DNA of 64,000 nt from Lingula anatina (GCA_051362555.1 CM120640.1:13020001-13084000); one strand, 5' to 3'. Numbered from the stretch's first letter, positions 121 to 44,600 are shown. A program made the numbers and translations. Notes: generated from the sequence alone by a model not told the origin.

Positions 121-238
121 CTCATCATATTTTCTATCGGCATCTTCAGCAATGTACTTGGCCTCCTGAAGCTGCTTCTCCAGCTCAGCAATACGCTCAT
201 CATCAGTCATGGTACGGTTTTCCAGGGCTTTGCGACCT
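121..238 (-). CDS. TPM: Tropomyosin exon 4 variant d
   Basis: 118 nt, ctag|...|gtgaac; [39 protein letters not shown]. Confidence 0.93.
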
Positions 239-3200
239 CTAGCAACGCACACAAAGAAGTAGGAGGTAGAAGTAATAAAGAGCCAACCAAAATAACATAA
301 TAGGTTGTACAATAACAATAACAGGAATGACAATTGCAAAATAATAAATAAAGACATAGATACACCCACTGAAACTAAAAAAGAAAGCACTTGTGTGTTG
401 AGGAGCTGTCCAAATAAAAAAGTGCCATTGATCAAGCCACCTAAGTGACATTTAGTATGGAGAGGGCCTAAAGGGGCAGGGCCTATACCAGGTGTAAGGG
501 GGGGGGGGGGGGGGGGGGGGGGGGAGAGACAGAGGATGAGCTACCAAGTCTCAACATGCCTAAAGAGTTGCCTTGGTGTTCACCTCATCAAATTTACGGT
601 CAGCATCTTCAGCAATATATTTAGCCTCCTTCAGCTGGGCTTCTAGGGTCTCTATTCTTTCATCATCCTGCTGTGTCCTGCCCTCTAATGCTTTACGCCC
701 TCTGGTGGGACACAAAAGAAAGAACTGTGAAAAACCCAAAGGCAGGAACAGACACTTGCCAGAACAGAAAGTGGCAGTTAATCAAGTTGGACAGAGTAGA
801 GCCATTGTTGTTCTTAGATCAATAAAGGGGATTGGGGGGAAAGGAGGGTTGCCACTTGGGCATATTAAAATGACCCTTCCAGACATGTGCCTCCAAAGCT
901 GTTAACCTAAAGTGAAAAAAAAACAAAAAACACCTGAAATACAGAAAAGTTTTATTAATAAAAACAAAATTGCTGAAAAAGATACCAGATGCTGTTAGTT
1001 GGAGTTACCTACAAACACAGGCACATACCTCGTCAAATTTGCGTTCAGCTTCATCTGCAGTTTCTGTGGCTTCTCGAACCATCTGCTCAAGCATTCCAAT
1101 TCTATCATCATCAATATTGTTTCGGTTCTCAAGCACTTTTCGCGCTCTAGTGTAAGAAAAGATGCAAGGCTGTATGAACACACAGCAAACGTGCTAACAC
1201 AACACATGCAAGACAGTTTGTGAACAGAGAGTTTAACTCTTCCAACACGAAAAAACATCATAAAACAGATCTCCCAACTGCAATACAGACATTAAATGAC
1301 AGGACTATAAATTTCCATAAACCCAGCCCAACGAAATATCTTTACACATTTAGTGAGTCTGCAGTTTCATGTTTACATACATTGCTTCAAGCAACCCTTG
1401 TTATGTATAGGCAGGAGTGGTGATGATAATATCGCCAGGAAGATATAAACTGCTTGGTTCACAAAACTATGTGCATAGACACAAAACAGCAAGACATAAA
1501 ACAATACAAAATGCCACACTTTTTCCAATTTAAAAAGATGGCCGCGTTTGATGCATACCTCTTCGAACATTCGCTCTCGCTCTTCAGCAATACTGCGGGC
1601 ATGCTTGAACTGTTGTTCTAACTGTGCTATCCTATCCTCATCCAAATTACTTCTATTTTGCAGTACCCTGCAGGATCTACACCAGGCATGCAAGAAAATG
1701 ATTGAAGCGCTACCTGTTAGTGGATTCTGTACATGGATTAACATATAAAAGAAACTGTTGCGGAAAAGATCTTGCATAAATTCAAAAACAAGAAAGGGTT
1801 GATAGAAAAAAATTAACTTTGGATACAAAAGTCATACCAATACAATAAAACAGGTAGCAAGATATTAAATAATAAATAGTAAATGTTACAAAAACTTCTC
1901 TCATGCTATCCCCCTTCTTTCCCATGGTATAAATAATATGAAAACCCCGTATCTATCCAAGATCTACATTGTAACAGACTCAATAAAAGACCACTTTCAC
2001 ATTTTAACATTACAAAATGTTTCAGATGTACTATGAAGTAATAGCCTGTTAACGCAAAGGTATTTTCATCAATAATCCTTTATGTTGGTCACATTCCTTT
2101 ACGAGTGACTTCACTGGCTTCCAATTTCTCCAACTGGGTCAAGACTGTAGTGCCCAGTGTTTAGACGAAAAGGTTTTCAAACTGGCCATCTGATTCATTC
2201 AATAAGCATTAGGCTTCAAATCTGAGTTGATAATTTCAATAAGAAAAATTAACAAACACCAAGAGAAGAAATTGCGGTCATTAGCCAAAATGATGTTCGG
2301 AACAACAGTAATTCCTAAATTTCTGATTTCCCCTTATTTTAGGCACAAGAGAAATTCTTCCTGACAGAATCACACAAGCAGAAAAAGGTTAGGGCAACTT
2401 ATTTAATTGTTGTTGCAACAAAAAGACTGGTTATTAAAAGAAAATACATGCAGATGAAGAAAATGGCATGCTGATATATTTAAAGTGCACACTTTAAATT
2501 AGTGAAATATAATATTCCACAGATGAAATAAATATGATATCCAGCTTAGGTTATCTATGAAGGAAGTAAAAAAGCACTGGAAAGCAAGATAAAAAATTTG
2601 CCATTTAGAAGAGCGCCAAGATCTATCTGTACAGTAGGCAGAGAACTCTTGAGCAAAGAATCCTAGATGTATACAAGAAACGCAACAATCACAACAAGAG
2701 GTCAACATACACATTGACACGGCCACACCAAATTTCAACAATTATACCAATCATCAAAGCTACATTCTTAACATATCATTTATACATAATTTTGCTCACA
2801 TCAATTTGATTTGGCTTTTGATAATCATACAATCAAGGGCAGCATGTGCAAGTGGCCATAAATGGAATCAATACAGGCCATTAAGTTACCAAAATCCAAT
2901 TTCATTTGACAAACCTTTATTGTTATTATGGTATCCATGTACTCGGACCCTATTAATCCTTCAATATACACCAAACTACCCATAAAACTGGCCAATTTCT
3001 ATGCCCTACATCCAAGATATCAGTGGCACATGATAAGAGTTAGCTAGAGTAAAGATGCCTTGTGTGCACACATATAGCTCAACTTAAAACATCAATATCC
3101 AGATCCCTTAGTCACATTGTATTTAAGATTACAAAAGCCCAGTACAAAGGGAACATTATGTTGGAGAAATGAATGCATATACATGAATATCCCTCAGGTT

Positions 3201-6200
3201 CCAAATAATAGTTTAAGGTGTGTAAGAGATGGATTTAGGATGAAACCCACCTTTCACACGAGGTCAAATAGCTTATGTGACCTGTACTATAAAATTCTGC
3301 CTACCCCAATGGCAAAAGGGGACAATTTTGTGCAATCAACTCAACAGGATGTTTTTTCTTAGCTTTGAGGAAAGGGTATACTTTTACAAAGAAGTAATGA
3401 ATGCCTTTGGAGCTGCTGGTTTCACACCCCTCTTTTTAGACCATGACTCATTCAAACCTATGCAAATGATGCCCTTGACGCAATGAAAAAAACAAACAAT
3501 AAAACAGATCTGAACCATTACATTTTCTGTGCTTGATGGCTTTTCCATAAGCTATTCACAAATCTTCTTAGAAATCCAAAAAGAGCCTCCTTTGAATTTT
3601 TGAATAAATGTCCAAAAATAAATTTAATTGCATTTCTAAGCTCATTTTTCATGTTGCCACCATTGAAAGTAGATATTTAGGGCTCGCTGTTACATGCCTG
3701 GTGCAAATAATTTTGCAATACAACAAAAGAAATCTGACTTGGGCTTAAAAATACTTAAGTAAAAAAAAATTACAACTGAATCAAGAATAAAATTTACAGG
3801 GAAAGTGAATACATACCTCTCAGACTCATCTGCAGCTTGAGAAGCCTCGTCCAACTTGGATGATGCTGCAGTGAGTCTCTCCTCTGTGCTTTCTAGGTTT
3901 TCTTCTAATAGTAAGACACGCCTGTTCAGTGTCTGCACCTGCTCCTCAGCCTAACAATGACAAAACAAAAATAAAACATTTAAATAAAAGAGAAAAACCT
4001 TGTAAACATTTGGCAAAACACTAGGTTGGTGTGGTGAATACTTTCATTGCATCTGAAGTAAGGGAAATTTTGATGGATTGGGTGCTTTTCTTACATTTTT
4101 AAACTGTTTATCATGAGTAAAGAAAATGTTAAATATTCTTCACATATTTTAGAAAACCTTCATCCCTTAAGGGCTGATTATAATATCTATAATACAAAAA
4201 CTGATAAAACACAGACATCCTAACAGCGTGTGGTATACTAAGATGCCTGTCGTGTTATATAACTGCCACATAATCAAGTAATCATTTACAAGTTAAAGAT
4301 ATACACAACCATGCCCTAGGGTCACATATACTACAAAGTTATATCCTGATATCCATACACCAAGGAAAGGAGCCAAAAAAACTTCCCATTCATAATTTGG
4401 CAAGGGCTTTTACTGAAATGCAGATCCAGCATTGATTGGAGCCCATTTCCAGACAGAACATATAGTATCTACTCTTCCAGGTATTAATTTTCCTTACTGA
4501 AAAATACTGCTTATTAAAAAAACACCAGTGATTTATTTAAAATTAAACCTGGCATGCCCTTTAACTTATAGACCTTCACAAGAGATATTGCTACATATAT
4601 CTTTAGTGCATAATTCATAGCTGTGTCTGACATAAACTGCCCTTTTATTGTACTTTATTACAACGCCATTAAATGCTTTGTTATCAAGGCAAACCTGCAT
4701 ACAAATAGCAGATCTTAAATTCTCTTTGAAATGCTAACAAGACTCGACTCATAAACCCCCTTCTAGATGCCCCAGCAGCCTGTGTGATTGAGTCATCCAT
4801 ATGTGCACCGTAGTTGTATTATTAGATAGACTGTGGTCACTTAGTCGGATACTGATGATAAAAAGGAAAAGAATTGAAAATACCAAGTGCTCATAAGAAA
4901 ACAAACATTCCTTTATCATCAAGTACAAAGTGGGCCAATCTAACTTTACAAAGACAACATATTTGTACACAATAATTCTTCACCTCAAATCTTGTGGATG
5001 ATTCCACTTAGCCGGTTGAGTGAATGAAAAAAGTACCTTTTTTATATAATGACACACCATTTAAGAGGAAATGGGAATCTGGGCCCAGGCACCTGTAAGG
5101 ACCCAAATTTGGAATTTGTGTCTCTACCTGTTATCTGAAACTATTATTACAATTTACAGGTTTTGAATGAGAATGAAGTTCTTTAATGTTAAATGCTCAG
5201 ACAAACTAACAATGATGCTATTGGGATTAGTCATCTGAATGGCACCTAATACCCAATTAAGTGTCTTACCTTTAAAACAAGGTTAGAGACCCATATTCAA
5301 ATTGATTTCTTAGGAGTTACGAGGAGTTATGACAGAGACAATAAAACCCAGTCATGCTGCTTTTTCTTTAGGTATAAATTATTCATAGTTTATTAAATGG
5401 TATGATTATGCAAATTTTTACTTTTTTCTCAATACTTGTTTTCACTTATAAAATTTTACTTGCATTTCATTAAATTAAGCCAGTTTACATAATTAAATTT
5501 CCTGAGCTAGAAGTTCCAAATTATGTTGTTTTGTTTTTCAAATTCTTTTCCCAGTGCATTCATTATGTTACACAAAGCTATACATTATGTTGCATGAGGT
5601 TTCTATCTGATTGTATAAAATCTTGATCACACTACCTTCTCTAATTTAGGCATCTATCCCAAAAATATCAACTAGTCTATACACAAATCACAAATTTATG
5701 CCATTATCTTACTTAATAACACACTGAACAAAGATAATTCATAGTTAATACATAATGAGATCTGTGCAAAGCTTTTGGTATAAAACTATAATTAATCAAA
5801 AATGCTATCTCTCATCACCTCTTGGATGATGATGTGCAGTAGACAATTTAGAATGATCCCAGACACTGGTGTGAATAATAAGTCTATATTTGTATTTCGG
5901 ATGGGGGACAAGAGTTCATCCAAGGTGACAATAAAAATGTCAACTGGGCAAATGTTTTATCTGCACAGTTAATATCTGTTTTTTTATTTAAGAAATGACC
6001 TTGCATAGTTGTGGCTTTCACTGAGATGGAGTCATGAGTAGGAAGGGCTGATATCTGACCTGGATTTCAACTTACTTCCGGACATGACAGACACTGATTG
6101 TGACTAAAAAAACGCCGTCAAAGGAGACTGCAGACGGTTCATATAACAAGTTCAGCATTCCTAAGGGGTTTCACAGTTTAAGGGTTCCCCAGTATCAAAG

Positions 6201-9200
6201 AAAATGCCTGATGCCCTTGCTTCTAAATCTCTTGCTTATGTCACGCCATTTGTACGGCGGCATTTTCACTCTCATTTGACCCTAACTAGATTTAAGAAAT
6301 ATGATCGCTGTGTAAACTAAAGCTACAAACCATGCCCCAACTTTATATTTTCGACCACAACTTTAGATATTTATGCAGAGCAAAATAGCTAAGTACTACT
6401 AATCTACATTTACGACAAAGTAATGTCCGATTCTACTCACATGCCCAGCCCCTTACGTATGAAATAACAGAATAACATTACAATTATATACATACTTTTT
6501 CCTTTTCAATTTTCTCATTTTCACACTCTTGGCATTTCATCTCGTATTTGTCTCTCATTTGGTCTAGCTCCTCCCTTAAACTAGACATTTTCTGTTTGAG
6601 AGCATTCAATACGTTTCCTCCTTTCACGGCCGACATTTTGACGATTAAAGTAGTCGAGCACAAATCTAGGCTTCAGAGATCAAAAATGGCTGACCGGCTT
6701 CGGCTTGACCTTATCACACAGCAAACAGGTGGTTGTGTTACTCGCTCAAAAGTAGTGCGCTAAATCAGGCGCTGTCCTCATAGCTTTATGGCAGAAACGA
6801 AGTTTTCACTGACAAAGCTCAATTCTACTGCTTGTATTTAATCAAACACAACCTCAGAACATGAACCCTAAGAGAAGTCAGAAGTCCTATTTATCACAAA
6901 AATTGTATTCTTGAGCGGTGACGTATGTTGGAAGGCTGGGGTGGAGATCCGACTTTGTCACGTGACTACTATTTTACACCTGAGCTGTGTCACCAGCTGG
7001 GGACACCCCTCTGACTGAATACAGGCATTATATACGACGCGTCTTCTGCGGGTTTCTTCTTCTTTCTATTTTTTTTAAAGTTTTCAGATTTTCATTCAGG
7101 AAAATGCTAACTCACAACTGTTACGGTTTAGCGTGGCAATAACTAAGTTATCATAATGATGCATATATGAAGATCTATTAAAAATTAAAAGATGTAATTA
7201 ACTTCCTATCAAAGCTTTCGGCGCCTAGGCCTAGTTCAGGGGTTTGAAAAAAATGGTAAACAAAGATTGGGTAGGATATTACGTCTTTTTAGTAGATCTT
7301 CATAGATGCATCATTAAGATAGCTATTTATTTCTTAAAGATCTAAACGGTGATTTGATAACAAAATATGTACAAATTCCATACAAAAAGTTAGAATCTTC
7401 GTATGTTCTATTATGAATGATTATTGCACGATAGACATTTAAACTTTTGTATGACTGAGTTCTCTTAAAACGGTGGAGTTATTTGACATCAGAACGTTAG
7501 TCCTTTTAAGCAAAATTTAAGTTTTATCAGTTGAGTTATATGTCACTTTTCTTTTTCATTTTTAAATGAAGTGAGTGAGAGGGAAGTTTAATACAATTCA
7601 TTTTCCGGCATGATATTAACTGCTATCACGAAATTAATTAATGATCAAAATATAAATGTTAACAGCAATAAGCGCCTCCAAATAGGCTAAAAACTGTACA
7701 AATGGACATATCCAGTAATTTTAATAACCAGGATATCACTACTCTAAAATCACTGTCAAGTCATGACGTGTGGTATTTTTTTCTCCATTAAAAGCTAATC
7801 ATGCACATCATTTAACATAAAGAGACTATTACCGTTCTTAATGAAACTCTCAATATATTCTGTATTTCTGTTCCTATAATAGCAAACTTGAGCATAGTGT
7901 TAGAATTCAGCATCTGGGCAAACGAGAAACTAGGGTTACGCATTGACCGTTGCTTTGGTAACTCCTCCCGACTGATGACGTCACTCTCTACCTCTTCCAC
8001 ATCAGAGAAGATAGGTTTGTTACTATATATGACTGCATCATATTCATCCATATTGCAGGGCGGTCTGGCATTGCCGCCTTCTGGATCTGGACGGAGAGAA
8101 ACATCGCGATCAGAAGACTTGGAACGTTTTTCTTTTTTCACTTTTACTTTCTTTTTCTTTTTTGTCTCTTCCTCTGTTTCTTCATCAACAACAGAGCCAT
8201 CATCTGATTTCTTTTTTCTTTCCTTTTTAACTCTTTTCTTTTTTCGAACTTTGTCTGTAGTTTCTGTTAATTCTGTCGTATCCGTAGGGTCTGGCGTTTG
8301 TCTTTCTTTAATCTCGCTGTCATTAACTTTTGTCACCTCTTTTTCAATAACAGATGCACCGCTAGGTTGCGGTAACGTTAAGTCCTCGTTGCCATGGTTA
8401 TGACGTTTCAAGTCTTCTGTTACGTCCATTGTGCATTTGTATATAGCGCAGGGCGCGTGCAAAATCCACTGCCTATGCCGCTGTACAGTTAATCCAAGCA
8501 GCACACCTTGTTATTCCAATATCAAATTGCAGAGGGGCGATGTTCAATAACTGGAACAGCGTTTAGTCAGATTCCCCTTCCACAGCCGGCATTCCTTGCG
8601 TTACATACCATATATGGAGAGCGGCGTCACTATGCGGTTTACGAGTAAATATACTAGTGCTTTCATTCCCAAAATATCCCACAAGATAGTACTTTCTATC
8701 TCCTTTACTGAAAGCGCTTAGCAGGGGAGGACTGGACGGAGTTTGTAACCGAAAAACAGACTTCGCCCTGTCTTAACGAAACTCAACTCTGACTGAACTC
8801 GTGATTTTCTAATGTATCTCAATTATCGTGCACGCACAAGAAGACACCCATTATCTTATCATCCAAGCATAGCACAGTTCCACTTTAACCCCAGGTGTAC
8901 ACTAATTTAAGCCTCCGATAATATACATTTTCTCTAATATATCATAGTATTTTATAAAAAATATATGTCAAAGCTACAGATTACAAATGCTACACGACTT
9001 TGTCAGACCGTCTAGAATCTGTATATCACTATATCAATATGTAGAATATATATCATTTCATATAGTATATATTATCATCTTTTTAAAACGTGGAATTATG
9101 TCATAATAATCGCAGAAAACGCCTCTCTCTCTAGGAACAGCCTCTGAATGATTCTTGCGCTACTTGGCAGCCTTATTTAGACGTGAGGGCTGGCTGTTTA

Positions 9201-11917
9201 TAACACAATCACAGCGAATCAACTGAATGCAACAGCTCTTCTAGTTGCTGTAAGAATAAAACACAGGGCACAACATAAGTCTGCACTGCCCTATATTTAT
9301 CTATATGGACCAAATATTTAACTTATTGTCTCTTTTATTATATTTCGAAGGAACTCAAACACTTTGCGTACCTTTTAGAATGCCCTATGTACTACTTGCG
9401 ACATTAGCAATATGCATCTGTGCATCAATACAGTCTATATTCTCAAATAGAGCTCGAGAAAATCGAGACTATCAAGAAAAAGTCTATTGCCCATCATAGA
9501 ACGGTTCAACAATAACAATGCGTTCATGCCTATAAATTGTGTATTAGCTAAGCGTGCATGCTCGCCCCCGCCTCCCCCTTCCCCCGATTTTTTCGTAGTG
9601 CTCATGCATATTGTGCTAGAATCTTCATGTGACCTCCATCATATTTTATACAAGTACACCACTTTGAACTGAAATCGTCCCTCCTTCATAACCAAGTAGG
9701 GCATTTTATGAGTTTGGACACATCTTTGCTCTTTCGACTTAAAACGATATTCAGTGAGGAATTCTATACACTTCATGACGCTGTCTAGGAAACGCATTCT
9801 ATACAGGATTTTTAAAAATCCAATGACGAACATTAGATATTTCTTTGCACGTGAAAAGTTTTGATAGTGATTAGCAATTTTTTATTTGTGAATTCAACTT
9901 TTGGAGTGGATGGCAGAAAGGGTTGGTGAAAAAAGCGGAATGAAATGTGCGTATATTTAATGTTTGTTTTCTTACCTCTCCCTGGGCTTTCTCTGAAGCT
10001 TCCAGTTTTGTGGTGGCATTTTGTAGATTTTCAGTAGCTTGGTCCAAGTCATTTTCTAATTGCTGGATTCTTTTCTGTAGGCTGTTGATTTCCTCCTCAG
10101 CCTAGAAAGGGAAAATAGAATAGGTGTGATTTTATTACTATATATATATATGTGTGTGTGTTTGTATAAAAACATGGACAGGCCTCTTATTTTGTCTATA
10201 AAAAACGAAAGACCGGTTGAACTATATTGTTTTACATACGTGTCAGTAGACTTTTTAAATCAGCTGTTGGGTAGGACGGTCGGGCCAATTGTTCAACATG
10301 GAAAAAGATTTCCCAGCAAAGCGAGAATATCTCTTAATTTTTTCTTTCTTTTAAAATGGATTATTGTAGTTTCATAATATTTTACAATTCAAAATGAAAA
10401 CAAAAGTCTTATCTGGAGCATAAACTAAGAACATGAGGTTTTGTTGATGGGGCAGTGGGGGTCTAAGGCAGTGGGAGTGTCCCCGTTGATGCCATGAAAT
10501 GCAGGCAGTGGGTCTTTGCCAAAATGTGCATTTGTTTGTCTTTCCCTTTTTCGTTTGGCAAGCAGGGAACAGTTCTAGTACATTTTAAAATAATCTTGTC
10601 AGATTAAGAAAAAGGTCGGGGCAATAAAGATGAACTCAAGATTATCAAGAGAAGACACAAAAAAAATGCGAATTTTTGAGAGAGTAGTGCGGCTCAAAGC
10701 GAGAGAAACGCTATTAGCTTTCTCATGCACGCAAAGCAAACGCATCCAGGTACACCCACCTATACGATCGACAGGCCCATAAAGGGGAAGGTCGAAGTAC
10801 GTTGTTGCGGGGTTAATAATATCAACTGTTATGGAGCGATATGTACAACACACCACAGTTTGGCGCTACGTACCACAATGTCCGGATTTTATTGTTTCTG
10901 GCTGGGCCCGTTCAAAACCATGATGCTGCTTGTGATAATTTTTGCGGTAGGCTCATTTGAGGCCAACCTTTTTTTTTCTCTTTAGCAGGATATGGGATTT
11001 GCTAAGGTATGCGGTGTTGTAAATGGTGAGAGGTGAATCGGACAAGCTGTCAAAACAGCTAAACGCACATGCTGGGCAGGCAGAGCGAAAAGAGTTGTAT
11101 TCTAATGAAAACTGATCTAACGCAGAAACCCAAACAATGCCAGGCACAGTCACCTTTCATTAATTTCGATTAAAGGGATGTTGATCTTTCACAGAAAAAT
11201 ATCCAACCCTGATGAAAAGTGTTTCATTATAAATTTGACAAACAAACCAAAACTTCATAGCATGATTGGAATAAATAATAACTTGACCGTTAGAAAATAT
11301 TTACTGGATCCCCCTCGGTTTTATAAACATTTATCAGATAGCCAGGAATTTGATGTGACCTCGGATCAAGTTTCAAAATGGCGAACGCCGGTATCTGTAA
11401 ATGACCTTTTCCAGCAAACAGCGGTTTCCCGGAGCAGAAAAACCCAAGGACTAACGATGCTGTGCTAAATATGTCTCATTCTCCATTCCCAATCATTGGT
11501 TACAGTTTTCTTTAAAGATGCTGAAGTGGTTTGCCGGATTACATGGTAAGAAGGTAAAAGAAAAGAAGGAAATGCTAGGCCTATAGCAAAGAAACAATTA
11601 ACTGTATATGTATTGTGAAATTAAATACACAATTATATATATATTCTTCAAGGTTTGTTTTAAACACTGATGAAATAATATTAAAACATTAAAAGTAAGT
11701 TATTTCCACAGTTAGTCATGCATGCACATTTGTTACTGACTTGGTCCAATTTAGTGGATATAATGCGTGCGTTTTGATAAGTGGTATATTTTTCGTTACT
11801 TACCTTGGAGTTCTTTTCTTGCTCCTCTCTCAGTTTCTGCTCAGATGCCTCGGCTCTATCTTGAGCATTCTCCTTCTCAAGCTTCATAGCTTGCATCTTT
11901 TTCTTGATGGCGTCCAT
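121..11917 (-). CDS. TPM: Tropomyosin gene, 5' part (exons 1a, 2, alternative first exons, 3, 4a-4d); continues beyond the left edge of the window
   Basis: Starts [23 protein letters not shown]. Exon sizes match canonical tropomyosin architecture (114, 126, 134, 118 nt), all bounded by AG/GT with consistent phases. Confidence 0.97.
498..524. repeat. G27 homopolymer (poly-C in the tropomyosin pre-mRNA) between exons 4c and 4d
   Basis: Read directly from the sequence. Confidence 0.9.
584..701 (-). CDS. TPM: Tropomyosin exon 4 variant c
   Basis: 118 nt, ccag|...|gtgaac; [39 protein letters not shown]. Confidence 0.93.
1029..1146 (-). CDS. TPM: Tropomyosin exon 4 variant b
   Basis: 118 nt, ctag|...|gtatgt; [39 protein letters not shown]. 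Confidence 0.92.
1559..1676 (-). CDS. TPM: Tropomyosin exon 4 variant a (divergent)
   Basis: 118 nt, phase 2-0, gtag|...|gtatgc; [39 protein letters not shown]. Confidence 0.85.
3817..3950 (-). CDS. TPM: Tropomyosin exon 3 (constitutive, 134 nt)
   Basis: ttag|[44 protein letters not shown](R)|gtatgt. Confidence 0.97.
6496..6636 (-). CDS. TPM: Tropomyosin exon 1b (short/cytoskeletal isoform first exon, 47 codons; not in the ORF track)
   Basis: caaaATG; [47 protein letters not shown]|gtatgt; phase 0; the LNALKQKM motif is typical of 1b exons. Confidence 0.9.
6957..6966. promoter_or_regulatory. Palindromic E-box (USF/Myc/MiT type) in the putative exon 1b promoter
   Basis: GTCACGTGAC in a locally CpG-rich region about 320 bp upstream of the exon 1b ATG; an AAAATGGC YY1-like motif lies at about 6684. 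Confidence 0.45.
7833..8429 (-). CDS. TPM: Atypical long alternative first exon of tropomyosin (199 codons; low-complexity head plus short coiled-coil lead-in, Tm1-I/C-like)
   Basis: ATG at 8429, open frame with Lys/Glu-rich tracts, ending ...[26 protein letters not shown]|gtaatag. The phase-0 donor joins exon 3 ([11 protein letters not shown]) in frame. Confidence 0.82.
8608..8617. promoter_or_regulatory. CArG box upstream of the atypical tropomyosin first exon
   Basis: CCATATATGG, about 180 bp upstream of the ATG at 8429. Confidence 0.5.
9976..10101 (-). CDS. TPM: Tropomyosin exon 2 (42 codons; not in the ORF track)
   Basis: ttctag|[42 protein letters not shown]|gtaag, 126 nt, phase 0-0. 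Confidence 0.95.
11804..11917 (-). CDS. TPM: Tropomyosin exon 1a (38 codons)
   Basis: [38 protein letters not shown] followed by donor AAG|gtaagt. Confidence 0.97.
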
Positions 11918-26090: not shown

Positions 26091-28874
26091 TCAGTCACTC
26101 CTGTCACTTGGCAAGCCAAATAATTTCACTGTTCCAGCATCTCTGTCATTGTATTTTTCCTTATCATCACAAGCAAATGCCAGCAGGTGTCGTTTTGGAT
26201 GCCATGCTATTGTGAATGTGGGGTACTCACATGGGACTTCTGTTATCTTTTCACCTGAAAATATATTTGTGTGTTGAATATATTTTAATAATTTAATTTA
26301 ATAATATATTTTAATAATATTACATAATTGAATGTTCAAAGCTGCAGCTGCAGTTTGATATCTTATTAAATGACATATGTAAATTATAACTAAAAAAGAT
26401 ACCTAAATCAAAGTTACACATGGCTTCTTTTTTCTTATATTTCTTACCAGTTTCTACATTCCCAATGTCTATCACAAGATCTTCTGATGCTGATGCTAAT
26501 ATCTTTCCATCATGGCTAAAACTCATTGTCCTTATGGGCCACTCTAACCTAGAATGTCAATAAAGTAATCTGACACAGTTATGAAAAAAATTGGGAGCAT
26601 CTGTAGCAAAAAAAAAAAAGACTTGATAAATCTGCCTTTACATACGTAAGTACACGAATCCTTGACCAATCTTTTTACCTTCAGTCAAAATGTTTTAATC
26701 ACTGCCAAAAAATAATGTTTGAGCAAAAGCCTAGTTATGACTGAATTTTGGCTCATTATCTCTGCCAAAGAGGTGATGTATTCACCTCCATTTTGTAAAA
26801 GTTAAAGATGGATTTTCACTAATATTTCAGGACAGGTCAGACTGACCTAAAAGTTATTAATTTTGGTGGTCCAGATCATCGTGTGGATCCAAGAATTTTA
26901 AAAGGATTCTCCACCATTGTGAGATGTGGCCAATAATATTGACCTGTTGTGCAATGAACGTACTCTCAACAACCACAATTTATCAGTGAACAGTCCTTTG
27001 TGGATGTCAACTCCTGAGTGTTTTTTTTTTTTTTTTTAGTTTAAACATAACTGATAACTGCAATATCCCCATTAATTTCATGCTTGGATAGATGCTGTAA
27101 CTGTGACATCTATATTTAATTTAAACAGCAGTGTTTACCTAGAAAATGTCCTGACACAAACCAGGTCCTCCAGGTCCCACAGTGTGACCAAAGCATCAGC
27201 ACTGCCTGTGGCAAAGTACTTCCCAGTGGGATCAAACTCTATACAAATACAGTTGGCAGGATGAGCATTGAGAACATATTGATGCTGGAGATCAGGATAA
27301 CTGAAATGTTAAGACATGGTTTATTTGTTGTTGTAGCATTAACTTTATATGATGTTCTAAATCAATGGGGAGCATCTGTCGTGAAAAACCTTTTTCCTTC
27401 ATTTGCTGTGGAACAGATATTATGTAAATTTGACCTGCAACAATTAAAAGGCATTCGGTGTGATTTTGATGGGAAAAATACAATTAAATTTTCCAGGTGT
27501 ATCCTTCAGTGAGCATAAGATGCATTAGAAGTTTTTAATAAGTGGTATTAATTGCATTACTTAATTAAGATAAAAAGTTAAAAAGCAAAATTTTTGAATA
27601 AATCAAGATTTATAAGGACTTATGATATCTAGATTGCTTACTCTATAGCTTATCAATAAATAGGATAATTCAGTTTTGTACAATTCTCTGTAAAACTATC
27701 TTTATCATCTTACAAAATGTGTTTTCAGTAACCAGTATTCACATCCTATTGCAGCAGTCCCAAATAGTACCTTAATATATGTATACAGCCTTGTCCACTT
27801 GTGAGAAAGAACAAGTCTCCTTCATTGTTCCATGAGATTTCATTAACTTCATATTTGAATTGTTCCTCTGCTTTTGATCGATGTGTTTTTGCATCAATAA
27901 ATGTGACCAAATCTTCTTTGTTTCCAACAGCTATTGTGTTTCCATTTGGGGACCAGCATATGTTGATATTTTCACCTTAAATATGTCAAGAAATAGTGCA
28001 TTAGTCATTCTTTGAATTTTTAGTGAAATGCAAAACACAGAACATAAAATAGTAAACAAAGCCAACAAACCTACGTATGTCTACTACTGAAAAATCCTGT
28101 TGCAAAAGTTGTTATTGATATCAGATTCAAAATGTAAAATGTATAGATAAAAATTTTAACATCATGATCTGTGCTTTATTCTTCAAGAAAAAAGGTGACT
28201 TGAAAATTAAATGCAACCAATTTAAGAGCACTGAAACAGTACCTTTTGTATTAACTGTAGCCACTGTTTTTGATGTCCTGGCATCCCAAAGCCGCACTGT
28301 TTTATCCCCACTAGCTGTAACCAGAAGTTCTGGGTGTGTGGGGTGCCAACATAACTGATCTACACTATCTCCATGCCCACGGAATGTATGTTCTTTGGAC
28401 TATGTAAAAAACACACCATGCTATTTGTCAAATCAAAACATTATTTTTCAATTAATAAATTAATAGGATTATAGCAAAATTTCACATACCTTTTATCTTT
28501 GACACTGACATATTAGTTATTATTGTTTATTTTGTTTCTATTTATATTTAGTAAGTGTTCTATGATCAAAATGGCTAAGCACCATGAACCTTAAGAGTGA
28601 AGTTCTTTAACTTGAATTTGGTCAAATGGGTATTTTTAAACTCTTCGCATTTGACATGGTTCTGGGATTTTCATCCATTAATTTGCAAACAACAATTAGG
28701 AGGATGTAGCCCCAGGTAATTAAAAGTAGGAGTACTATTTGGTCTGAGGGGGATCCAGTTTCTATTTAATTTGAACTTCTATCACTTATTAAAAGTTTTT
28801 TCCCTAGTTTTTGTTTCAGAAGCTTCACTCAGTTTGTAAATGCACAGTGTTTATGTTGTATATATGGCTATTCT

Positions 28875-28927
<53 letters not shown>

Positions 28928-29223
28928 GATTTTGACTTGTAATATAGCATTCTAAAGTCGTTTTCTGTGGCTTTTCGGTTTATTAATCAAACACTGAATC
29001 AAGGCAGGTGACAGCCGGGAGTGTATGCATGTTGTACTGTACTAACCAAACGATCTCTATCCAAACTGAAGAGGCTAACTGTCTTGTCGAAGGATCCAGA
29101 TGCCAATTTTCTGCCATCACAACTCCAATCCACTGAATGTACCTTTGCGGAATGTGCCTGGTTTTCTTTTACTCTGTTATTATTTTGGAAATATTTTTGC
29201 ATTTCTTCTGTATATGAAGCCAT
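26091..29223 (-). CDS. THOC3: THO complex subunit 3 (Tex1, WD40), 6 exons, about 321 aa
   Basis: Exons 29223-29047, 28399-28243, 27975-27771, 27300-27139, 26548-26448 and 26254-26091 total 966 nt. Motifs: AHSAKVHSVDWSCDGRKLASGSFDKT, RGHGDSVDQLCWHP, AWHPKRHLLAFACDDK, AGTVKLFGLP. Confidence 0.97.
26756..27040 (+). mobile_element. Putative non-autonomous Helentron/DINE-like element in a THOC3 intron
   Basis: Begins ttatctctgccaaagaggtgatgtattcacc, has an internal ttttggtggtccagatcatcgtgtggatcca segment, and ends ...ctcctgagtg(t)n agtt, resembling Helentron-associated elements (recognised from memory). Confidence 0.5.
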
Positions 29224-29483
29224 TCTTGCCGGCTGTATGTATATCTGCCGATAGATGTCCACAGTTGTACTGAAAAGCCTCGAAAAAAAATCTATCCATT
29301 GTTGACTCAGTTCGAAAAATGGTGTTAAAACTAAGAAAATAAAGTCGTTGTGTGAAATTCAGAATGATCACTTGGAATGTCTTTCACCTAATGTTTCACT
29401 CTTTCCTCAAATTTTTGAAAAAAAGCTTTTCTTGGTATAGCGGCCTCTTCAGGCAATTTCATATTTTGCGGCACATTCAAGAG

Positions 29484-31849
29484 ATGGAGGGAAGCACAAC
29501 AGATAATTCGGGCTCAACTGCTGACTCAAGTGGCCTTAGGATTCCTGCAGCCGTCGATAACATAGAAAACAAATCAACTGATGTGGCAGAAGGTCGACAC
29601 GCAACTCTTTTACGCCAAGCGTTGGAGAAAACTGTGCAAAAATGTCTGTCCAGCGGCAGGTATTTGAAGTTGTTAGTGTTACCTCAGTTTTTGGCCCAGT
29701 TACAGATACAACTTACATGCTGGGTACTTACCGTGGTTATGGCTTATAACATTGTGTGTTACGAAATCTCCACGAAATATCCACATCCTGAGACACTGTT
29801 TGTCTTCCGTTGCATCTGATAATATATCATTCAAAGTCTTTTTGGATCGATTCAAGCAGCAGTTTGATAACGCTTGTAAAGTTTCAAGCTATGCAGCAGT
29901 ACACCCCCTACCCAGTAGTACCATTGGGTAGAGGGGTAGCATGAAGTTCTATGCATTGGCACTCCCTACAGTTTCTGATAAATGTACTATGTGGTATAAC
30001 TAATAACACATAAAAATAGTAGTGAACATAAATGCCTAATGAAGAAATGATAATGACTTCAAGTAAGTCACTTACTTGCATGTAGCTAGGGAGCTCTCGC
30101 ATCTTTCCCTGACCTCCACCTCCTGAAGTTGCACAATCCTGAAAATCCAGCCAGTCTTGCCAGTAACTTCTATGTGAATAAGATACAATTAAAACTTTGT
30201 TTTGTTTCATTCTTGGTAATCAAGAGACTAACTTGTATTTTGGAAGACAAACCTGTTTTTGCATGTCATGTTGTAAACAGACACCAGGGCTATTTTTATT
30301 ACAGGCAGTGTACATGTAGTTAGTGACTGGGATTTACTTCATATAAGAAAAAAAGTAATGATAATACATGGTTTATTTAATTTTTACAGGTTTTCTGCAT
30401 TTGCTAGAAACTTCAAAGCAGTGTATGACAAAAATCCAAAAGCTTTGAAAAATATCCACACACAGTTTATGCATCAGCTGGAATCGGCTATAACAGTAAG
30501 TTATATCATGCTGATATTTTAAAATGGTAATAATTGCCAAATTGTCAGTTTGCTATTGTTACAAAATGCTTATTATAATATATTTTAATTTTGATTTTTT
30601 TAATTGAGTTATAATGGAAAGTTAATGGCTTGAAGAGGATAAATAGAATAAAAAAATAAGGGATAGTTGATTTGCTAGCTGAATATGACTTTGTGTAAAT
30701 CTGTCATTCTTGATCAGTCAATAAATATGGATTATTCTCAGAAAATTTGTGCATAGAATGTGTAAATTTTGATATTGAAAAAAAAAAGAAGAAATGAATG
30801 CATTACACTAGTTTATCCGTGTTGTCAACTTGTCACAATGAGGAATATTTGAGGAAATACCTTTAACACATTTTCCCTTTCTTTTTTCAGGAAGAAATAG
30901 ATACACTGTTTGAAGAGGAGAATATTGTAGGACTTATGAATGAACTTGACAAGTTAATCAGTGAAGCACCTTTGGATCTACAACATCCAGCTTGGTAAAA
31001 TTAATTTTTGTTAATTATTAAGGTAAATTATATTAATTACCAAGACAAAGAAATTAGTGCTTAATTAATTAGCTGGCAACTGCTATCTTTAAATTCACAC
31101 TGACACTTCCATTAATTATGTCATGTGTGTTAATACCCCAGTCTAGTATTTTTTATGTTACTTCACAGGCGCCCAACAGGCAACCCTGAAGCTGATATTC
31201 AGTCCCACTTAATACAAGTGAAACAAGTACATAAAGAAACATTACAGTCCATATTGGAGGATTTGGAGGAAGAAACTGCTAGGTTAAAAGAGGCAGTGTT
31301 ATCAAAGAGACGTCAGCTTCTGAACACACAACAAGCTGTGCAGAATAAAGTAAAAGGGATGGATCAGGTGTGGCTGCAGGCAGTTCTTGTGATAATTAAA
31401 ATTACTTGCACGTAACGAGTCCTTAAAATTAAATGATGATGAGATTTGAACTAATTTTAATGGCTAATTTAAGAATACTGGACAATATTGTTTAAGGCAA
31501 CCTAATTATTCGGGGATATTGAAAATATATTAATTTTTTTATTGATAAACCACCTTCAATGGATGAATAAAACTTGCGGCGGAGCAGGGATTCCCAGTAA
31601 TGCATATAAACCACTTCTGTTACATAGTTTCTTAATAATATATAAGTGATATAACTAAAATAGTTTGGTTCAGTTTATAACATAAGATTTAATCCTTTTT
31701 TTTTGTTATGTAAAAACATGTTTGTCTGAAAAATAAAACATGTTTTTCTTGTAAAAAATATTCTTTTTTTTTTTTTTCAGGCAGTTGATGTTTGCAAAGA
31801 AATGCCAACCAAGGAGATATGGTCATTTTTTGAAGAAACTTCTAAATGA
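29484..31849 (+). CDS. PMF1: Polyamine-modulated factor 1 / Nnf1, Mis12 kinetochore complex subunit; 5 exons, about 217 aa
   Basis: Exons 29484-29659, 30390-30495, 30891-30994, 31169-31367 and 31781-31849 total 654 nt. Motifs: QFMHQLESAITEEIDTLFEEENIVGLMNELDKLI, AWRPTGNPEADIQSHL, and a C-terminal coiled coil. Confidence 0.88.
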
Positions 31850-35115: not shown

Positions 35116-35576
35116 CATGGTTTGCTAAGGTTTTCCCTTAAATAATGTGGTTAAAAACTCTTACCGTAACAAGAGATGTGCGCATAGGGTCTAACGTCAG
35201 TGATGATAAGAGGAAAATCATACGTGTTCTGTTAATTAAGGGAATACTCTTGGAATAGACTTTTACTTTTTTTAAACTCACCTTCCTATTTTATTTAAAA
35301 GAATGAAAAAGAGAAGGAGAACACAATAGCTTACTTTTATCACCCCGCTTTTGGTTTGCTTAATTTTTTAATAAGCAACGAGAGGCTTTAAAAGGCAGTA
35401 AGTGGTTTTATGAGCTTTTACTCTTCAGCTGTTTGTCGTTTTAACTCTTATTTTAGTTGACTTGTATTATTTATCAGTGGGGTATTTTGATTAATCAATC
35501 GTTTTATTTTCACTTCTTAAACTTAAATCATTTTATATTTCACTTTTGTAACGATGGTATTGACCATGACTTTATA

Positions 35577-35884
35577 CCCAGACAGCCTCAGTAATCTGGC
35601 CCATGTCTGGCCCAGATCTGGCAGGCTCTGGCAACGTCTGGCAAAAGGTATGGTCCACGTATGGCTTGCCACATGTGGGCCAGATGTGGCAATGGTTGGG
35701 CCAGATCTGGCCCAAACATTGCCACATCTGGCCCACTTCACATTTGCTCATGTGGCCAGATGTAGGCCCAGATCTGGCAATATCTGGCAAAGGTATGGCA
35801 TGCCGGATGTGGACCAGATGTGGGCCAGATCAAAATCAAAGGGGCCAGATTAGGGCCGGATATGGACCACATATGGCCCAGATT
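35577..35884. repeat. GC-rich degenerate array of tggcccagatctggc-like units; probably one arm of a non-autonomous DNA transposon
   Basis: Starts ta|cccagacagc, contains many ggc(c)cagat(c/g)tggc units and ends at a poly-T run; explains the overlapping spurious ORFs on both strands. Confidence 0.6.
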
Positions 35885-35956
35885 GTTTTTTTTTTTTTTT
35901 TTTTGTAAATAATATTAAATTATTCAATATGATTACTATAAAAAAAAAGACAAACA

Positions 35957-41600: not shown

Positions 41601-44600
41601 TTGGGTTAATGTAAACATTGACATTTTAATCAAAATGTAGTGACATGTGTGCAAAATTTGAGATTAAAAAATTGGAAGTTTTGGAGTGAATTTACAAAAG
41701 TAAATGCGAAAAGTCTTAAGCCTGGCTTGCATGTAGAAAAAGGAGCTAATCTAGATATTTTTGTCTGTTGTGTTTCCTGTAGTATCTTTTGTATGGTTGT
41801 CCCCTAAAATATATGTATATACTGGTACATGTATGCTTATTAACTTGATTAATTGTTGTTCCTCTGAAGCTTTTATACCAATAATAATTTAATTGGAGTA
41901 AATTGTAAAATAATAAAATTGTAAAATTAAATTTTACCTTTATTTCAGATGGCTATATATTTGTACAGTTAACTGCAAATATGAAGTGGGTATGTACTTG
42001 TGTATATTATACACATTTCTGTAAAATATGCAATGCCACTAGCTTGTTAGTCCTTTGTGAAAAAAAAAGAAATACTAGTAACTATTTTGATAAGTAAATA
42101 ACTTAAAATTCAAAATATTCAAATGTGCACTGACAAATTTGAAACTGTTATTTATTTCTCTCAGTGCGAAGGGTATCAAAGCGGTTAAACTTTAAAGAAG
42201 TTAGTGAGGATGAGGAATGGAATCTGTACTGGACAGATTACTCTGTGGCCCTGGAGAGGGTGATGGAAATGAAGAAGTATCAGGTAAAATGGCTAATATT
42301 TATGTATCTTGGTACTTGTATCTTCAAGACTTGCAAGACATTGACTATACCAAATATTTTATGCTGGTCTAAAGACAAAGTTGATTTAATGGTAATGTTA
42401 TTTCAAGCAAAAGGAAATGAAATTGGATCAGTCTCAAGTAGTCAGTTGTATTGCTTGTTCCTTGTCCTTATGGTGCATTAAGAATATTTACCTTCTTTTT
42501 TGTTTTAGAAAATCAATCATTTTCCGGGCATGAGTGAAATCTGTCGGAAAGATTTACTATCCAGGAATTTGAACAGAATGGTGAAACTCTTCCCAAAAGA
42601 CTACAATATCTTCCCTAGATCATGGTGCCTGCCTGCAGAGTAAGTTTGTTTTCTTTTGTTTTTATTGTTATCAAGTTTTCAGACCAAGATGATGTTGTGT
42701 GTCTGGAGAAAGCTAGTATAAATCAGTATCTAATTGATTAACGTAATTGTTTTTCTTAATGTTATAGGCCCTTTATATATTTAAAAACTTTTATATGATT
42801 GAAACACGCCCTATGAGAAAAATCAGAAGTATGCCACTATCCTAACATTTGAATGTTATGAAAAGAAGGTAACAAACAACAATTTTCTTTCAGTTATGGT
42901 GACTTCCAAGCTTTTGCTAGGCAAAAGAAGAGCAAAACTTATATTCTCAAGCCAGAGAGTGGGTGCCAAGGCAAGGGAATATGGGTGACCAAAAACCCCA
43001 AGGAAATCAAACCCAATGAACATATGGTTTGTCAGCAATATATTTCAAGGGTAAGCAAAAGTTGAACCCATACTTTCTCTTATGTTGGTAGAATAAAAAC
43101 TTGGTCAAATATGAAGTGGGAGAGCTTTGATCCCTAATGACCTGATGACTTGTTTAAAATATGATTACAGTGTTGACACAGGTGAGATTAAAATTGTTTC
43201 ATGCTTATGCTCATGGATATCTTGTTTATATTTAATGTAGATTAAAATTGCTTCATCTGTTTGTGCAAGGGTATTTTATTTACCCTTCAGAAAATCGGTA
43301 GCATGCTTTTGAAATTAAAGTACATTTATAAAGTTTAAGAACTATATTAAAAATAATAATAATCACTGTTATTTTCCAGCCTTTCTTGATCGATGGCTTC
43401 AAGTTTGACCTTCGTGTGTACACTCTTGTCACATCCTGTGATCCATTTAGGATATTTGTCTTTAAAGATGGTCTTGCCAGGTTTGCCACAACCAAGTACA
43501 CTGAACCTCATGGGAATAATGTGGTAAGTAATAATTCGTTGACTTTTTTATTTCACTTCTATGGACACCCCTTTGTGCTTACATATAAGATGACTGGTTG
43601 TGGTTCAAAGAAGAATTTTATGTAGGAAATTAATGAAATAGTTATCTGTTAAAAAAACAAAACAAAGAAAAACAAAAAACAAACATATCATCAAGGATGC
43701 AAGTCTGCTAGTGTAAATGGTCAGTGCAGGGTAGCCTTATTGCTCCCTCCATTTATTGCCCCTGATGAAATTATCGGAAATTGTGAAAAATTTTGTAAAG
43801 AGAAATTAATATAAAAATATAATTAAGCAACTACATGTTTGAAGTGCTCAAACTGAAAAGCTTTGTGTTTTTGGCCTTAAGGCTTGACATTGATTTCCAT
43901 TGCCTTAAAGGAAAATCTTCTTTACAAAGACTTTAAAAATAGTTCAGGACAAAGAAAATTTCTGTAACATAAAACTGCTTACATGTACCTTGTGCCAGAA
44001 TAAGTGCCATATTGATTTTGCTTGGCTGGTCTTGTTGAGTAATGCTGTTCAAAATAGAAAAGCTTTTTGATAATTGAAAAGAATTTGACTAGTTTAAGGT
44101 GTAAATTGAGACATTTCACCTGTATAGTTATATAATTGAGGTGAATGCTATGATGTGGGTCAGAGTGAAGTTTGTTGATGGTGCACATCCTGAATCCTCA
44201 TTATATCACTAGGTAACAAAATGGCAAAAATATTGGTGCAGACCTCTCCTGTCTTAAAGAAATACTATACATTAAGAAAGAATGGAGATTAGAACTAAGT
44301 ACAGAATATCACCACTCTACTTGTGACTTTTAAAATTTACGCCATTGACCAAGCATTCCTGAGACTTATGTGAAGTTTGAGGGGAACAGAATGATTTTTT
44401 TGGTACTCTTTAGCCATTTCTATTTTACCAGTATATCTTTTTTGCAGTTATTTGTAATATTGTCAACCTTTAAAATCATAATTAAGTTTCATAACCATGA
44501 CCACTTTAGATCATTTTGGGTTGTACCTGAATATAAAATATCCCTTTGCATACTTCCACTGAAGAAACTGGCATTTCAAAGGCACATTTTGAGTTTGAAA

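What the first reader, a model, noticed from the sequence alone, without database searches (positions are those of the whole stretch)
7833..8429. Apparent non-arthropod counterpart of the atypical kinesin-binding tropomyosin Tm1-I/C
Seen: a 199-codon first exon hidden between exons 2 and 1b, mostly low-complexity (two poly-Lys blocks, acidic and Ser/Thr runs). It ends [32 protein letters not shown] and splices in frame to exon 3 ([11 protein letters not shown]). Known: Drosophila Tm1-I/C has a long disordered head joined to the exon-3 coiled coil, binds kinesin-1 and RNA for oskar mRNA transport, and can form intermediate-filament-like polymers. From memory (needs verifying), its junction reads approximately KFSIIRNELHNIMNTQLKR-AESEVAALNRR, which aligns without gaps to [30 protein letters not shown]. 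Inference: this isoform may date back to the protostome ancestor, implying a conserved tropomyosin-kinesin RNA-transport module in spiralians. The basic tracts could bind RNA or act as an NLS.
Basis: partly seen in the sequence, partly recalled or inferred. Interest (0 to 1): 0.88.

Follow-up and report, generated by a model that had tools for sequence, protein, structure and literature searches.

The report
Ancient kinesin-binding tropomyosin head beyond flies
A hidden, spliced first exon in this non-arthropod animal's tropomyosin gene encodes the same short helix that lets the fruit-fly protein Tm1-I/C grip the motor kinesin-1, and the exon sits in the same place in molluscs, annelids, a flatworm and arthropods, so this supposedly fly-only protein head likely dates back to the common ancestor of protostome animals and likely still binds kinesin-1.

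Summary
Confirmed. The 199-codon exon (8429-7833, minus strand) is real and splices in frame to exon 3 (37 junction reads in 4 of 8 RNA runs; under 1% of exon-3 entries). Its last 25 residues are homologous to the unique kinesin-binding helix of Drosophila aTm1 (Tm1-I/C): a profile of 43 exon-only relatives finds PDB 7BJS chain C as top hit (E 6e-7), without gaps and in register with the splice site, and fly I267/L271/L279 are I/I/L here. The same exon occurs in gastropods, bivalves, octopus, annelids, a tapeworm, insects, crustaceans and a centipede, between exons 2 and 1b wherever order could be read. The fly structure paper calls aTm1 'present in Drosophilidae'; I found no report of wider range. 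Differences: database models of relatives keep a full coiled coil and lack the fly's filament-forming tail; the lysine blocks and a DEYD-FSD motif are absent from arthropods. Kinesin binding, RNA binding and tissue are untested. The scan earlier noted the arthropod version on other DNA (e1-7497388); the spiralian link is new here.

The parts
7833..8429 (-). Coding part of the alternative first exon ('exon X'), 199 codons, ATG at 8429 in good context, phase-0 GT donor at 7832
   Evidence: junction reads
7833..7907 (-). Conserved helix, residues 175-199, equal to Drosophila aTm1 257-281; I185, I189, L197 correspond to fly I267, L271, L279
   Evidence: helix predicted in the abalone relative
8001..8048 (-). 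MDEYD..IY..KPIFSD motif, residues 128-143; conserved in spiralian-type heads, replaced by other motifs (LRC, DYPG) in arthropods
   Evidence: F[SP]D-type motif in 60 of 60 versus 0 of 40
8073..8093 (-). RPDPEGG motif, residues 113-119; a looser R[PES]xx[ED]G form lies at the same distance in arthropod heads
   Evidence: 56 of 60; 28 of 40 arthropod heads, shuffled rate 0.018; pattern chosen after seeing the alignment
8118..8252 (-). Two Lys/Arg blocks (residues 60-74 and 90-104) in the low-complexity head
   Evidence: such blocks in 51 of 60 spiralian-type heads, 1 of 46 arthropod heads
8430..8900 (-). Transcribed 5' leader of exon X, upstream end not mapped; out-of-frame ATG at 8436 opens a 12-codon frame overlapping the start
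   Evidence: depth tables; sequence
11804..11917 (-). Tropomyosin exon 1a (coding part)
9976..10101 (-). Tropomyosin exon 2
6496..6636 (-). Tropomyosin exon 1b (short-isoform first exon, coding part)
3817..3950 (-). Common exon 3, acceptor for exons 2, X and 1b; supplies the second half of the fly-type kinesin-binding region (fly 282 onward; L296, L300, L307 kept, D299 is N)
1559..1676 (-). Alternative exon 4, copy a
1029..1146 (-). Alternative exon 4, copy b
584..701 (-). Alternative exon 4, copy c (no joint among those listed)
121..238 (-). Alternative exon 4, copy d (main copy in muscle-isoform-rich runs); later exons lie outside the window

Best explanation
This is an alternative first exon of the tropomyosin gene, spliced to exon 3, whose last 25 residues are homologous to the kinesin-binding helix of Drosophila aTm1 (Tm1-I/C); the isoform likely binds the cargo-binding stalk of kinesin-1 heavy chain and likely acts as a motor adaptor or regulator rather than as an actin-filament tropomyosin. 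Shown: an internal, low-output start between exons 2 and 1b makes an RNA in which a charged low-complexity head and the conserved helix replace the normal N-terminus. Predicted: the head is disordered and the helix extends the exon-3 coiled coil by about 24 residues without a break. Inferred from the fly structure: helix plus exon 3 would pack antiparallel against two kinesin-1 chains through I185, I189, L197 and the exon-3 leucines; this would hold kinesin on RNA or other cargo and tune its autoinhibition, while the long head would block the head-to-tail overlap that ordinary tropomyosins need on actin. Inferred: the exon was present in the last common ancestor of arthropods and spiralians, and the oskar role and filament-forming tail are later fly additions. 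The lysine blocks would add RNA or microtubule affinity in spiralians only (least certain step).
For: Homology: the last 40 residues alone hit 1 of 177,635 PDB sequences at E<=10, 7bjs_C, gapless (E 0.18), with exon 3 starting at the matching residue. Profile A1 (43 exon-only ORFs, no coiled coil) gives 7bjs_C E 6.2e-7 and 7bjg_A E 0.002 as its top two hits. A spiralian-type head HMM scores 22 of 22 arthropod heads at 25.5-40.3 bits against a maximum of 12.4 in 2000 shuffles; an arthropod HMM scores the window exon 23.1 bits against a maximum of 10.8 in 2000 shuffles; hhalign probability 98.3, E 1.3e-14 over 43 columns. Helix HMMs score canonical exons 1a, 2, 1b and the coil below 0 bits, so the helix is not a recopied canonical exon. 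Register: 114 of 125 spliced proteins have the fly spacing from helix to exon 3, 5 are one residue shorter, 5 read through exon 1b, 1 lacks the helix; among 22 distinct helices with fly spacing, position 267 is I in 22, 271 L/I/V in 22, 279 L/I in 22. Position in the gene: phase-0 GT at the same codon in 9 of 9 metagenome loci; flanking tropomyosin exons in the same order in 7 of 9 (2 contigs too short); read-through gene models give 1a-2-X-1b-3 in Darwinula, Pieris, Cloeon, Pinctada and Bulinus. Selection: helix codons differ at positions 1/2/3 at 0.20/0.15/0.51. Function in the fly: aTm1 247-334 is the minimal Khc-binding part and largely rescues oskar localisation alone (PMC8247599 section 7); I267A/L271A weakens Khc binding and abolishes rescue (section 10); the Khc site is described as conserved. 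What is conserved between arthropods and spiralians is this piece. AlphaFold model of the abalone relative: disordered head, one helix from residue 155, 24 residues before exon 3.
Against: [quoted passage not shown] Database models of relatives carry 203-205 residues after the junction in 23 of 31 named or stored rows, a full coil unlike the fly's short one, which could still touch actin; these models come from short reads and do not prove phasing. Exon X reads appear only in runs rich in the exon-2 (muscle-type) isoform and are absent from the three runs that have almost only exon 1b, which does not point to an oocyte-type role; tissue labels were not given. The fly homodimer salt bridge R292-D299 has N at 299 here. 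Upstream of about 45 residues the spiralian and arthropod heads share only a short loose motif. The single-sequence match to the fly chain is not significant by itself (E 0.18), and the arthropod HMM's best single domain on the window is 16.9 bits. The arthropod set was recruited with a helix-containing profile, so only the PDB chain is a target fixed in advance.
Confidence: 0.62

Rival explanations
1. The exon is homologous and ancient, but the helix is conserved as a structural switch: it extends the coil, sets dimer orientation or caps tropomyosin cables on actin, or binds another coiled-coil partner. Kinesin-1 binding would be a later arthropod or fly use.
For: The same residues form the homodimer core and the Khc interface (PMC8247599 section 10). 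Relatives' models keep a full coil with normal C-termini. Exon X reads follow the muscle-type isoform across the 8 runs. Spiralians conserve extra motifs that arthropods lack.
Against: Polar positions outside the I/L core are also fixed across both groups (K263 in 77 of 79, E270 and N273 in 79 of 79 distinct helices), which suggests a conserved partner surface. The fly homodimer is weak (Kd 10 uM) against 141 nM for Khc. The span shared by both groups matches the minimal Khc-binding fragment.
Confidence: 0.27
2. The main job of the spiralian head is nuclear or nucleolar targeting, or non-specific nucleic-acid binding, through its lysine blocks; the helix is secondary.
For: Lys/Arg blocks in 51 of 60 spiralian-type heads; they resemble classical nuclear localisation signals (general knowledge, not tested).
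Against: They are nearly absent from arthropod heads (1 of 46), vary in number and spacing, and are far less conserved than the helix.
Confidence: 0.07
3. The arthropod and spiralian exons arose independently and converged, or the window exon is a rarely spliced by-product without function.
For: Low abundance (0-0.87% of exon-3 entries); the shared stretch is short; an out-of-frame ATG lies 7 bases upstream of the start. No protein-level evidence was seen.
Against: Same place in the gene, same splice phase and register, significant two-way profile matches, a second shared motif about 70 residues upstream, third-position-biased change, and no likeness to canonical exons.
Confidence: 0.04

Closest known systems
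Drosophila melanogaster tropomyosin 1 isoform I/C (aTm1; PDB 7BJS, 7BJG, 7BJN; PMC8247599, PMC10948360, PMC5286366)
   Same: Long low-complexity head joined to the exon-3 coiled coil; homologous unique helix (fly 257-281) in the same register; I267, L271, L279 kept as I, I, L; L296, L300, L307 kept.
   Different: The fly protein has a short coil (to about 366) and a low-complexity tail that builds filaments and is limited to Sophophora (PMC7519307); relatives' models here keep the full coil. The heads upstream of the helix are mostly unalignable; spiralians have lysine blocks and a DEYD-FSD motif, arthropods LRC and DYPG motifs. Kinesin binding, RNA binding and germline expression are shown only in the fly.
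Automatically predicted 380-420-residue 'tropomyosin isoform X' models of molluscs and unnamed annelid and flatworm models (e.g. XP_046340959.1 Haliotis, XP_063434812.1 Mytilus, XP_035829767.1 Aplysia, KAK2162088.1 Paralvinella)
   Same: Same exon, three motifs and splice register.
   Different: They carry only generic names, and no Pfam family covers the head (59 of 59 scanned); none is linked to aTm1 in the names seen. The window's own exon is filed in the protein collection as a stand-alone 205-residue ORF that runs into the intron.
Canonical tropomyosin isoforms, long (exons 1a+2) and short (exon 1b), Pfam PF00261
   Same: Share exon 3 onward and the same gene.
   Different: They begin with a short coiled-coil N-terminus used for head-to-tail overlap on actin (established knowledge); exon X is unrelated to exons 1a, 2 and 1b (below 0 bits).

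Membership tests
Tropomyosin (PF00261) | Coiled-coil exons matching the family | tested here: met
   Exons 1a, 2 and 3 hit PF00261 at E 1e-7 to 1e-8 as fragments; spliced relatives pass the curated cut-off.
aTm1 / Tm1-I/C | Unique first exon spliced in frame to the common exon 3 | tested here: met
   37 junction reads in 4 of 8 runs; transcription start not mapped.
aTm1 / Tm1-I/C | Unique helix of 20-25 residues extending the coil, homologous to fly 257-281 | tested here: met
   helix predicted in a relative.
aTm1 / Tm1-I/C | Core residues I267, L271, L279 needed for Khc binding | tested here: met
   I185, I189, L197.
aTm1 / Tm1-I/C | Long low-complexity, disordered N-terminal head | tested here: met
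   Composition; pLDDT below 50 over most of the head of the abalone relative. Not alignable to arthropod heads beyond short motifs.
aTm1 / Tm1-I/C | Short coil followed by a low-complexity tail that forms intermediate-filament-like polymers | tested here: inconclusive
   The 3' exons lie outside the window and short reads cannot phase them. 23 of 31 relatives' models have a full 203-205-residue coil and none showed such a tail; the tail is Sophophora-limited. Probably not shared, so this is filed as a homologous variant, not as Tm1-I/C itself.
aTm1 / Tm1-I/C | Binds kinesin-1 heavy chain as an antiparallel three-helix bundle | not testable with these tools
aTm1 / Tm1-I/C | Head binds RNA | not testable with these tools
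   Shown for fly residues 1-246 only.
aTm1 / Tm1-I/C | Antiparallel homodimer that does not bind actin | not tested
   No dimer model was run; R292 is kept, D299 is N.
aTm1 / Tm1-I/C | Germline (oocyte) expression | not testable with these tools
   Run descriptions give no tissue; exon X reads follow the exon-2 isoform.
   17 arthropods form one branch at 100/100 without the window; RNA reads continue into an exon 5 starting AARKLAITEV, seen in 8 of 14 non-arthropod rows and 0 of 17 arthropods.

The most novel reading that the evidence does not exclude
Protostomes share an ancient, unrecognised kinesin-1 adaptor hidden in the tropomyosin gene: a light-chain-independent module that loads and regulates kinesin-1 on RNA cargo in neurons, muscle and eggs of molluscs, annelids and flatworms (including Aplysia and parasitic tapeworms), and flies later co-opted it for oskar transport and added a filament-forming tail.
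Probability: 0.4. Interest if true: 0.85.

Novelty: new variant of a known kind. Interest (0 to 1): 0.72.

Why it matters
aTm1 is one of very few structurally defined links between kinesin-1 and mRNA, and it is treated in print as a fly oddity. Finding its kinesin-binding helix, in register and in the same place in the gene, across spiralians and arthropods would move its origin to the protostome ancestor, long before oskar-based germ plasm (timing from general knowledge). It separates an old core (the helix) from a young add-on (the filament tail). It also gives named, testable candidates for kinesin-1 RNA transport in systems where the adaptor is unknown, such as Aplysia neurons and spiralian eggs that localise mRNAs, and two further conserved motifs that point to unknown partners.

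Tried and rejected
Whole 199-residue exon against the PDB: only low-complexity noise; the signal appears with the last 40 residues or a profile. Pfam has no family for the head. Word-indexed protein searches found nothing with residues 120-199 among 350-2000-residue proteins or with profile A1 among 719-2050-residue proteins (length window badly chosen); later calls show these were sensitivity misses. ESM Atlas: no usable hit for the window head; the crayfish junction returned tropomyosin clusters, among them one mainly arthropod (334 aa) and one mainly mollusc (407 aa, score 0.88, a lead only). Foldseek of the AlphaFold model: no match at E<=0.001, uninformative for a long helix. No whole genome is held, so the 3' exons and the organism's kinesin could not be read. 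No RNA holder was listed in the index; runs of the same species label were laid instead. No complex prediction was run: no kinesin chain was on hand and a homodimer score would not separate the readings. Rejected: origin of the helix from exon 1a, 2 or 1b; exon X as an internal cassette after exon 2 (no such joint listed; gene models that chain 1a-2-X also chain X-1b and look like prediction read-through); intermediate-filament behaviour as a shared trait. The 119.7-bit score of the window on the spiralian-type HMM is circular, because that set was recruited by the window exon, and is not used as evidence. Earlier-findings searches by sequence and by spiralian words returned nothing.

Full report
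OBSERVATION. window:7833-8429 on the minus strand reads 199 codons from an ATG in good context to a phase-0 GT donor. It lies in a tropomyosin gene whose order is exon 1a (11917-11804), 2 (10101-9976), this exon ('X'), 1b (6636-6496), 3 (3950-3817) and four copies of exon 4; later exons are outside the window and no genome is held. I laid 8 of the 9 RNA runs listed for the same species label, each read only in part (6-26% of the run). The X-to-3 joint was found in X4 (16 reads, 14 starts), X5 (11), X7 (5) and X8 (5), and not in X1, X2, X3 or X6. That is 0 to 0.87% of all entries into exon 3, and up to 0.28 of the exon-1b level. The three runs with almost no exon-2 isoform (X1-X3) show no depth over exon X at all; X6 has depth near 1 but no junction read. 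Depth extends a few hundred bases upstream of the ATG and no joint into the exon from upstream is listed, which fits a first exon. Of six variant sites seen in reads within the coding part, four are silent and two change residues 162 and 166 in the variable linker; none falls in the last 30 codons.

RELATIVES. phmmer with residues 120-199 against 1.84 billion representatives gave 60 hits at E<=0.001, the exon's own ORF included. They share three motifs: RPEPEGG, a DEYD..IIY..PLFSD stretch and a terminal NSNTMxKFAIIxTELxN helix. Most are genomic ORFs that run into the intron at a Val right after the helix; 7 continue into a tropomyosin coil. I looked up 30 of the 60; named ones or their cluster mates are Patella, Haliotis, Biomphalaria, Aplysia, Mytilus, Tegillarca, Paralvinella, Dimorphilus and Owenia, and the rest are unnamed. 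A profile of helix plus exon 3 against proteins of 332-2000 residues gave 691 hits, of which 120 were listed. Of the 116 new ones, 115 carry the helix: Octopus, Ostrea, Pinctada, Bulinus, the tapeworm Schistocephalus, the centipede Strigamia, decapods, an amphipod, an ostracod and insects of six orders. No nematode or deuterostome was among those listed, which does not show absence.

HOMOLOGY TO FLY aTm1. The whole exon finds only noise in the PDB. Its last 40 residues find one chain of 177,635 at E<=10: 7bjs_C, the aTm1 chain of the kinesin complex, gapless over 26 residues, E 0.18; exon 3 starts at the matching residue of that chain. A profile of 43 exon-only ORFs, with no coiled coil in it, ranks 7bjs_C first (E 6.2e-7) and 7bjg_A second (0.002). 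In two-way tests on heads cut before exon 3, a 65-sequence spiralian-type HMM scored all 22 arthropod heads tried at 25.5-40.3 bits (best of 2000 shuffles 12.4), a 22-sequence arthropod HMM scored the window exon 23.1 bits (best of 2000 shuffles 10.8; best single domain 16.9), and hhalign gave probability 98.3, E 1.3e-14 over 43 columns. The arthropod set had been recruited with a helix-bearing profile, so the PDB chain is the one target fixed beforehand. Helix-only HMMs score exons 1a, 2, 1b and the coil below 0 bits. Of 125 spliced proteins, 114 have the fly's 19-residue spacing from the helix lysine to exon 3, 5 have 18, 5 read through exon 1b and 1 has no helix; many of the 125 are isoforms of the same gene, and only 22 helices with fly spacing are distinct. 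In those 22, fly 267 is always I, 271 L/I/V and 279 L/I. K263, E270 and N273 are near-invariant in both groups. The variable 275-278 stretch and the one-residue deletions fall near the kink at T277 in the fly complex (my inference). A loose R[PES]xx[ED]G motif lies about 70 residues upstream of the helix lysine in 56 of 60 spiralian-type and 28 of 40 distinct arthropod heads (shuffled rate 0.018; pattern chosen after seeing the data).

PLACE IN THE GENE. Nine metagenome loci (some are near-copies, about six distinct) all have a phase-0 GT at the same codon as the window; seven show flanking tropomyosin exons in the order 1a-2-X-1b-3 as far as the contig reaches, and two are too short. Read-through gene models give the same order in Darwinula, Pieris, Cloeon, Pinctada and Bulinus. 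Over the 24 helix codons of these loci and the window, differences per position 1/2/3 are 0.20/0.15/0.51 (pairs are not independent). I did not see the Drosophila gene itself, so its exon order is inferred from other insects.

ORGANISM. In a 32-row tree of head end plus exons 3 and 4, the 17 arthropods form one branch at 100/100 without the window, and ten mollusc rows form a branch at 97/97 also without it. The window's branch is long and its place otherwise open. RNA reads leaving exon 4d continue into an exon 5 beginning AARKLAITEV (read by hand from the loose-end consensus), as in 8 of 14 non-arthropod rows and 0 of 17 arthropods. The head has the spiralian-type motifs. So: not an arthropod (shown), a spiralian outside the molluscs (likely; no deuterostome, nematode or priapulid was in the tree). 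The protostome inference does not depend on this, because the named molluscs, annelids and flatworm carry the exon.

HOW IT LIKELY WORKS. In the fly, aTm1 247-334 is the minimal Khc-binding part, binds at 141 nM as one antiparallel helix on two Khc chains, and largely rescues oskar localisation alone; I267A/L271A weakens binding and loses rescue; the head binds RNA; Tm1 stabilises kinesin autoinhibition (PMC8247599 sections 7, 9, 10, 11, 12; PMC10948360 sections 9 and 14). The piece shared by arthropods and spiralians is the unique part of that fragment. An AlphaFold model of the abalone isoform (31-row alignment, mean pLDDT 74) shows a disordered head, a short helix at the DEYD motif and one long helix starting 24 residues before exon 3. 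I therefore take kinesin-1 binding as the most likely conserved function (0.62). The main rival (0.27) is a structural role: the same surface forms the fly homodimer, relatives' models keep a full coil (23 of 31 rows with 203-205 residues after the junction), and exon X reads follow the muscle-type isoform. The lysine blocks are a spiralian trait (51 of 60 against 1 of 46); RNA binding or nuclear import by them is untested. Filament formation is unlikely to be shared, as it needs a tail limited to Sophophora (PMC7519307, passages).

WHAT IS IN PRINT. PMC8247599 (passages and five sections read) says aTm1 'is present in Drosophilidae'. Passages only were seen of PMC5286366, PMC10512467, PMC8247605, PMC5603733, PMC9606379, bioRxiv 2022.04.12.487826 (79) and PMC7519307; PMC10948360 as abstract, passages and two sections. 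None of the passages reports the head outside flies. Ten full-text searches listed no paper on a non-fly aTm1 by title or abstract start; some listings were partial (20 of 63, 20 of 133, 40 of 73). Cho 2016 and Veeranan-Karmegam 2016 are not held, no supplements were read, and most subscription papers on tropomyosin gene evolution are outside the library, so an earlier remark may exist. The isoforms themselves are already in NCBI as automatic models under generic names.

VERDICT. A real, spliced, conserved exon, homologous to the kinesin-binding extension of fly aTm1 (about 0.95), probably inherited from the protostome ancestor. It is filed as a new variant of a known kind: same helix and gene position, different head motifs and probably a different C-terminal half. 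Interest 0.72.

Noticed in passing
window 121-1676 (minus); L002 10049-12038: Four tandem alternative copies of tropomyosin exon 4 in the window, used differently across runs (copy d in muscle-isoform-rich runs, copies a and b in others); locus L002 also has four copies, and L001-L003 have two copies of exon 2.
   Followed up: partly
window 1027 and 1557 versus 120 (loose read ends): Exon-4 copies a and b continue into a different exon 5 from copy d, so exon-4 and exon-5 choices look coupled; both exon-5 copies lie outside the window.
   Followed up: no
window 8436-8398 (minus): An out-of-frame ATG 7 bases upstream of the exon X start opens a 12-codon frame that overlaps the start; it could damp translation.
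   Followed up: no
P0002 (protein collection): The window's exon X is filed in public protein sets as a stand-alone 205-residue protein that reads six codons into the intron, an annotation artefact that hides its link to tropomyosin.
   Followed up: yes
arthropod heads P0090-P0203: Arthropods conserve their own LRC and DYPG motifs (40 of 40 distinct heads) just upstream of the helix, where spiralians have a different motif; neither has a Pfam family or a known partner that I saw.
   Followed up: partly
window 26320-29358 (minus), 29343-31415 (plus), 42143-45842 (plus), 62024-62611 (minus): Neighbouring genes: THOC3-like WD40 gene head to head with an Nnf1/PMF1-like gene, a tubulin-tyrosine-ligase-like gene, and a PHD-finger exon that looks like Pygopus (name recalled).
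   Followed up: partly
window 35523-35908: Repetitive GC-richer stretch open in several frames on both strands, with no Pfam hit; probably a small repeat element.
   Followed up: no
window 6620 (exon 1b): Runs X7 and X8 carry a 3-base insertion near the start of exon 1b and many substitutions, so that study's animals are a distinct population or strain.
   Followed up: no
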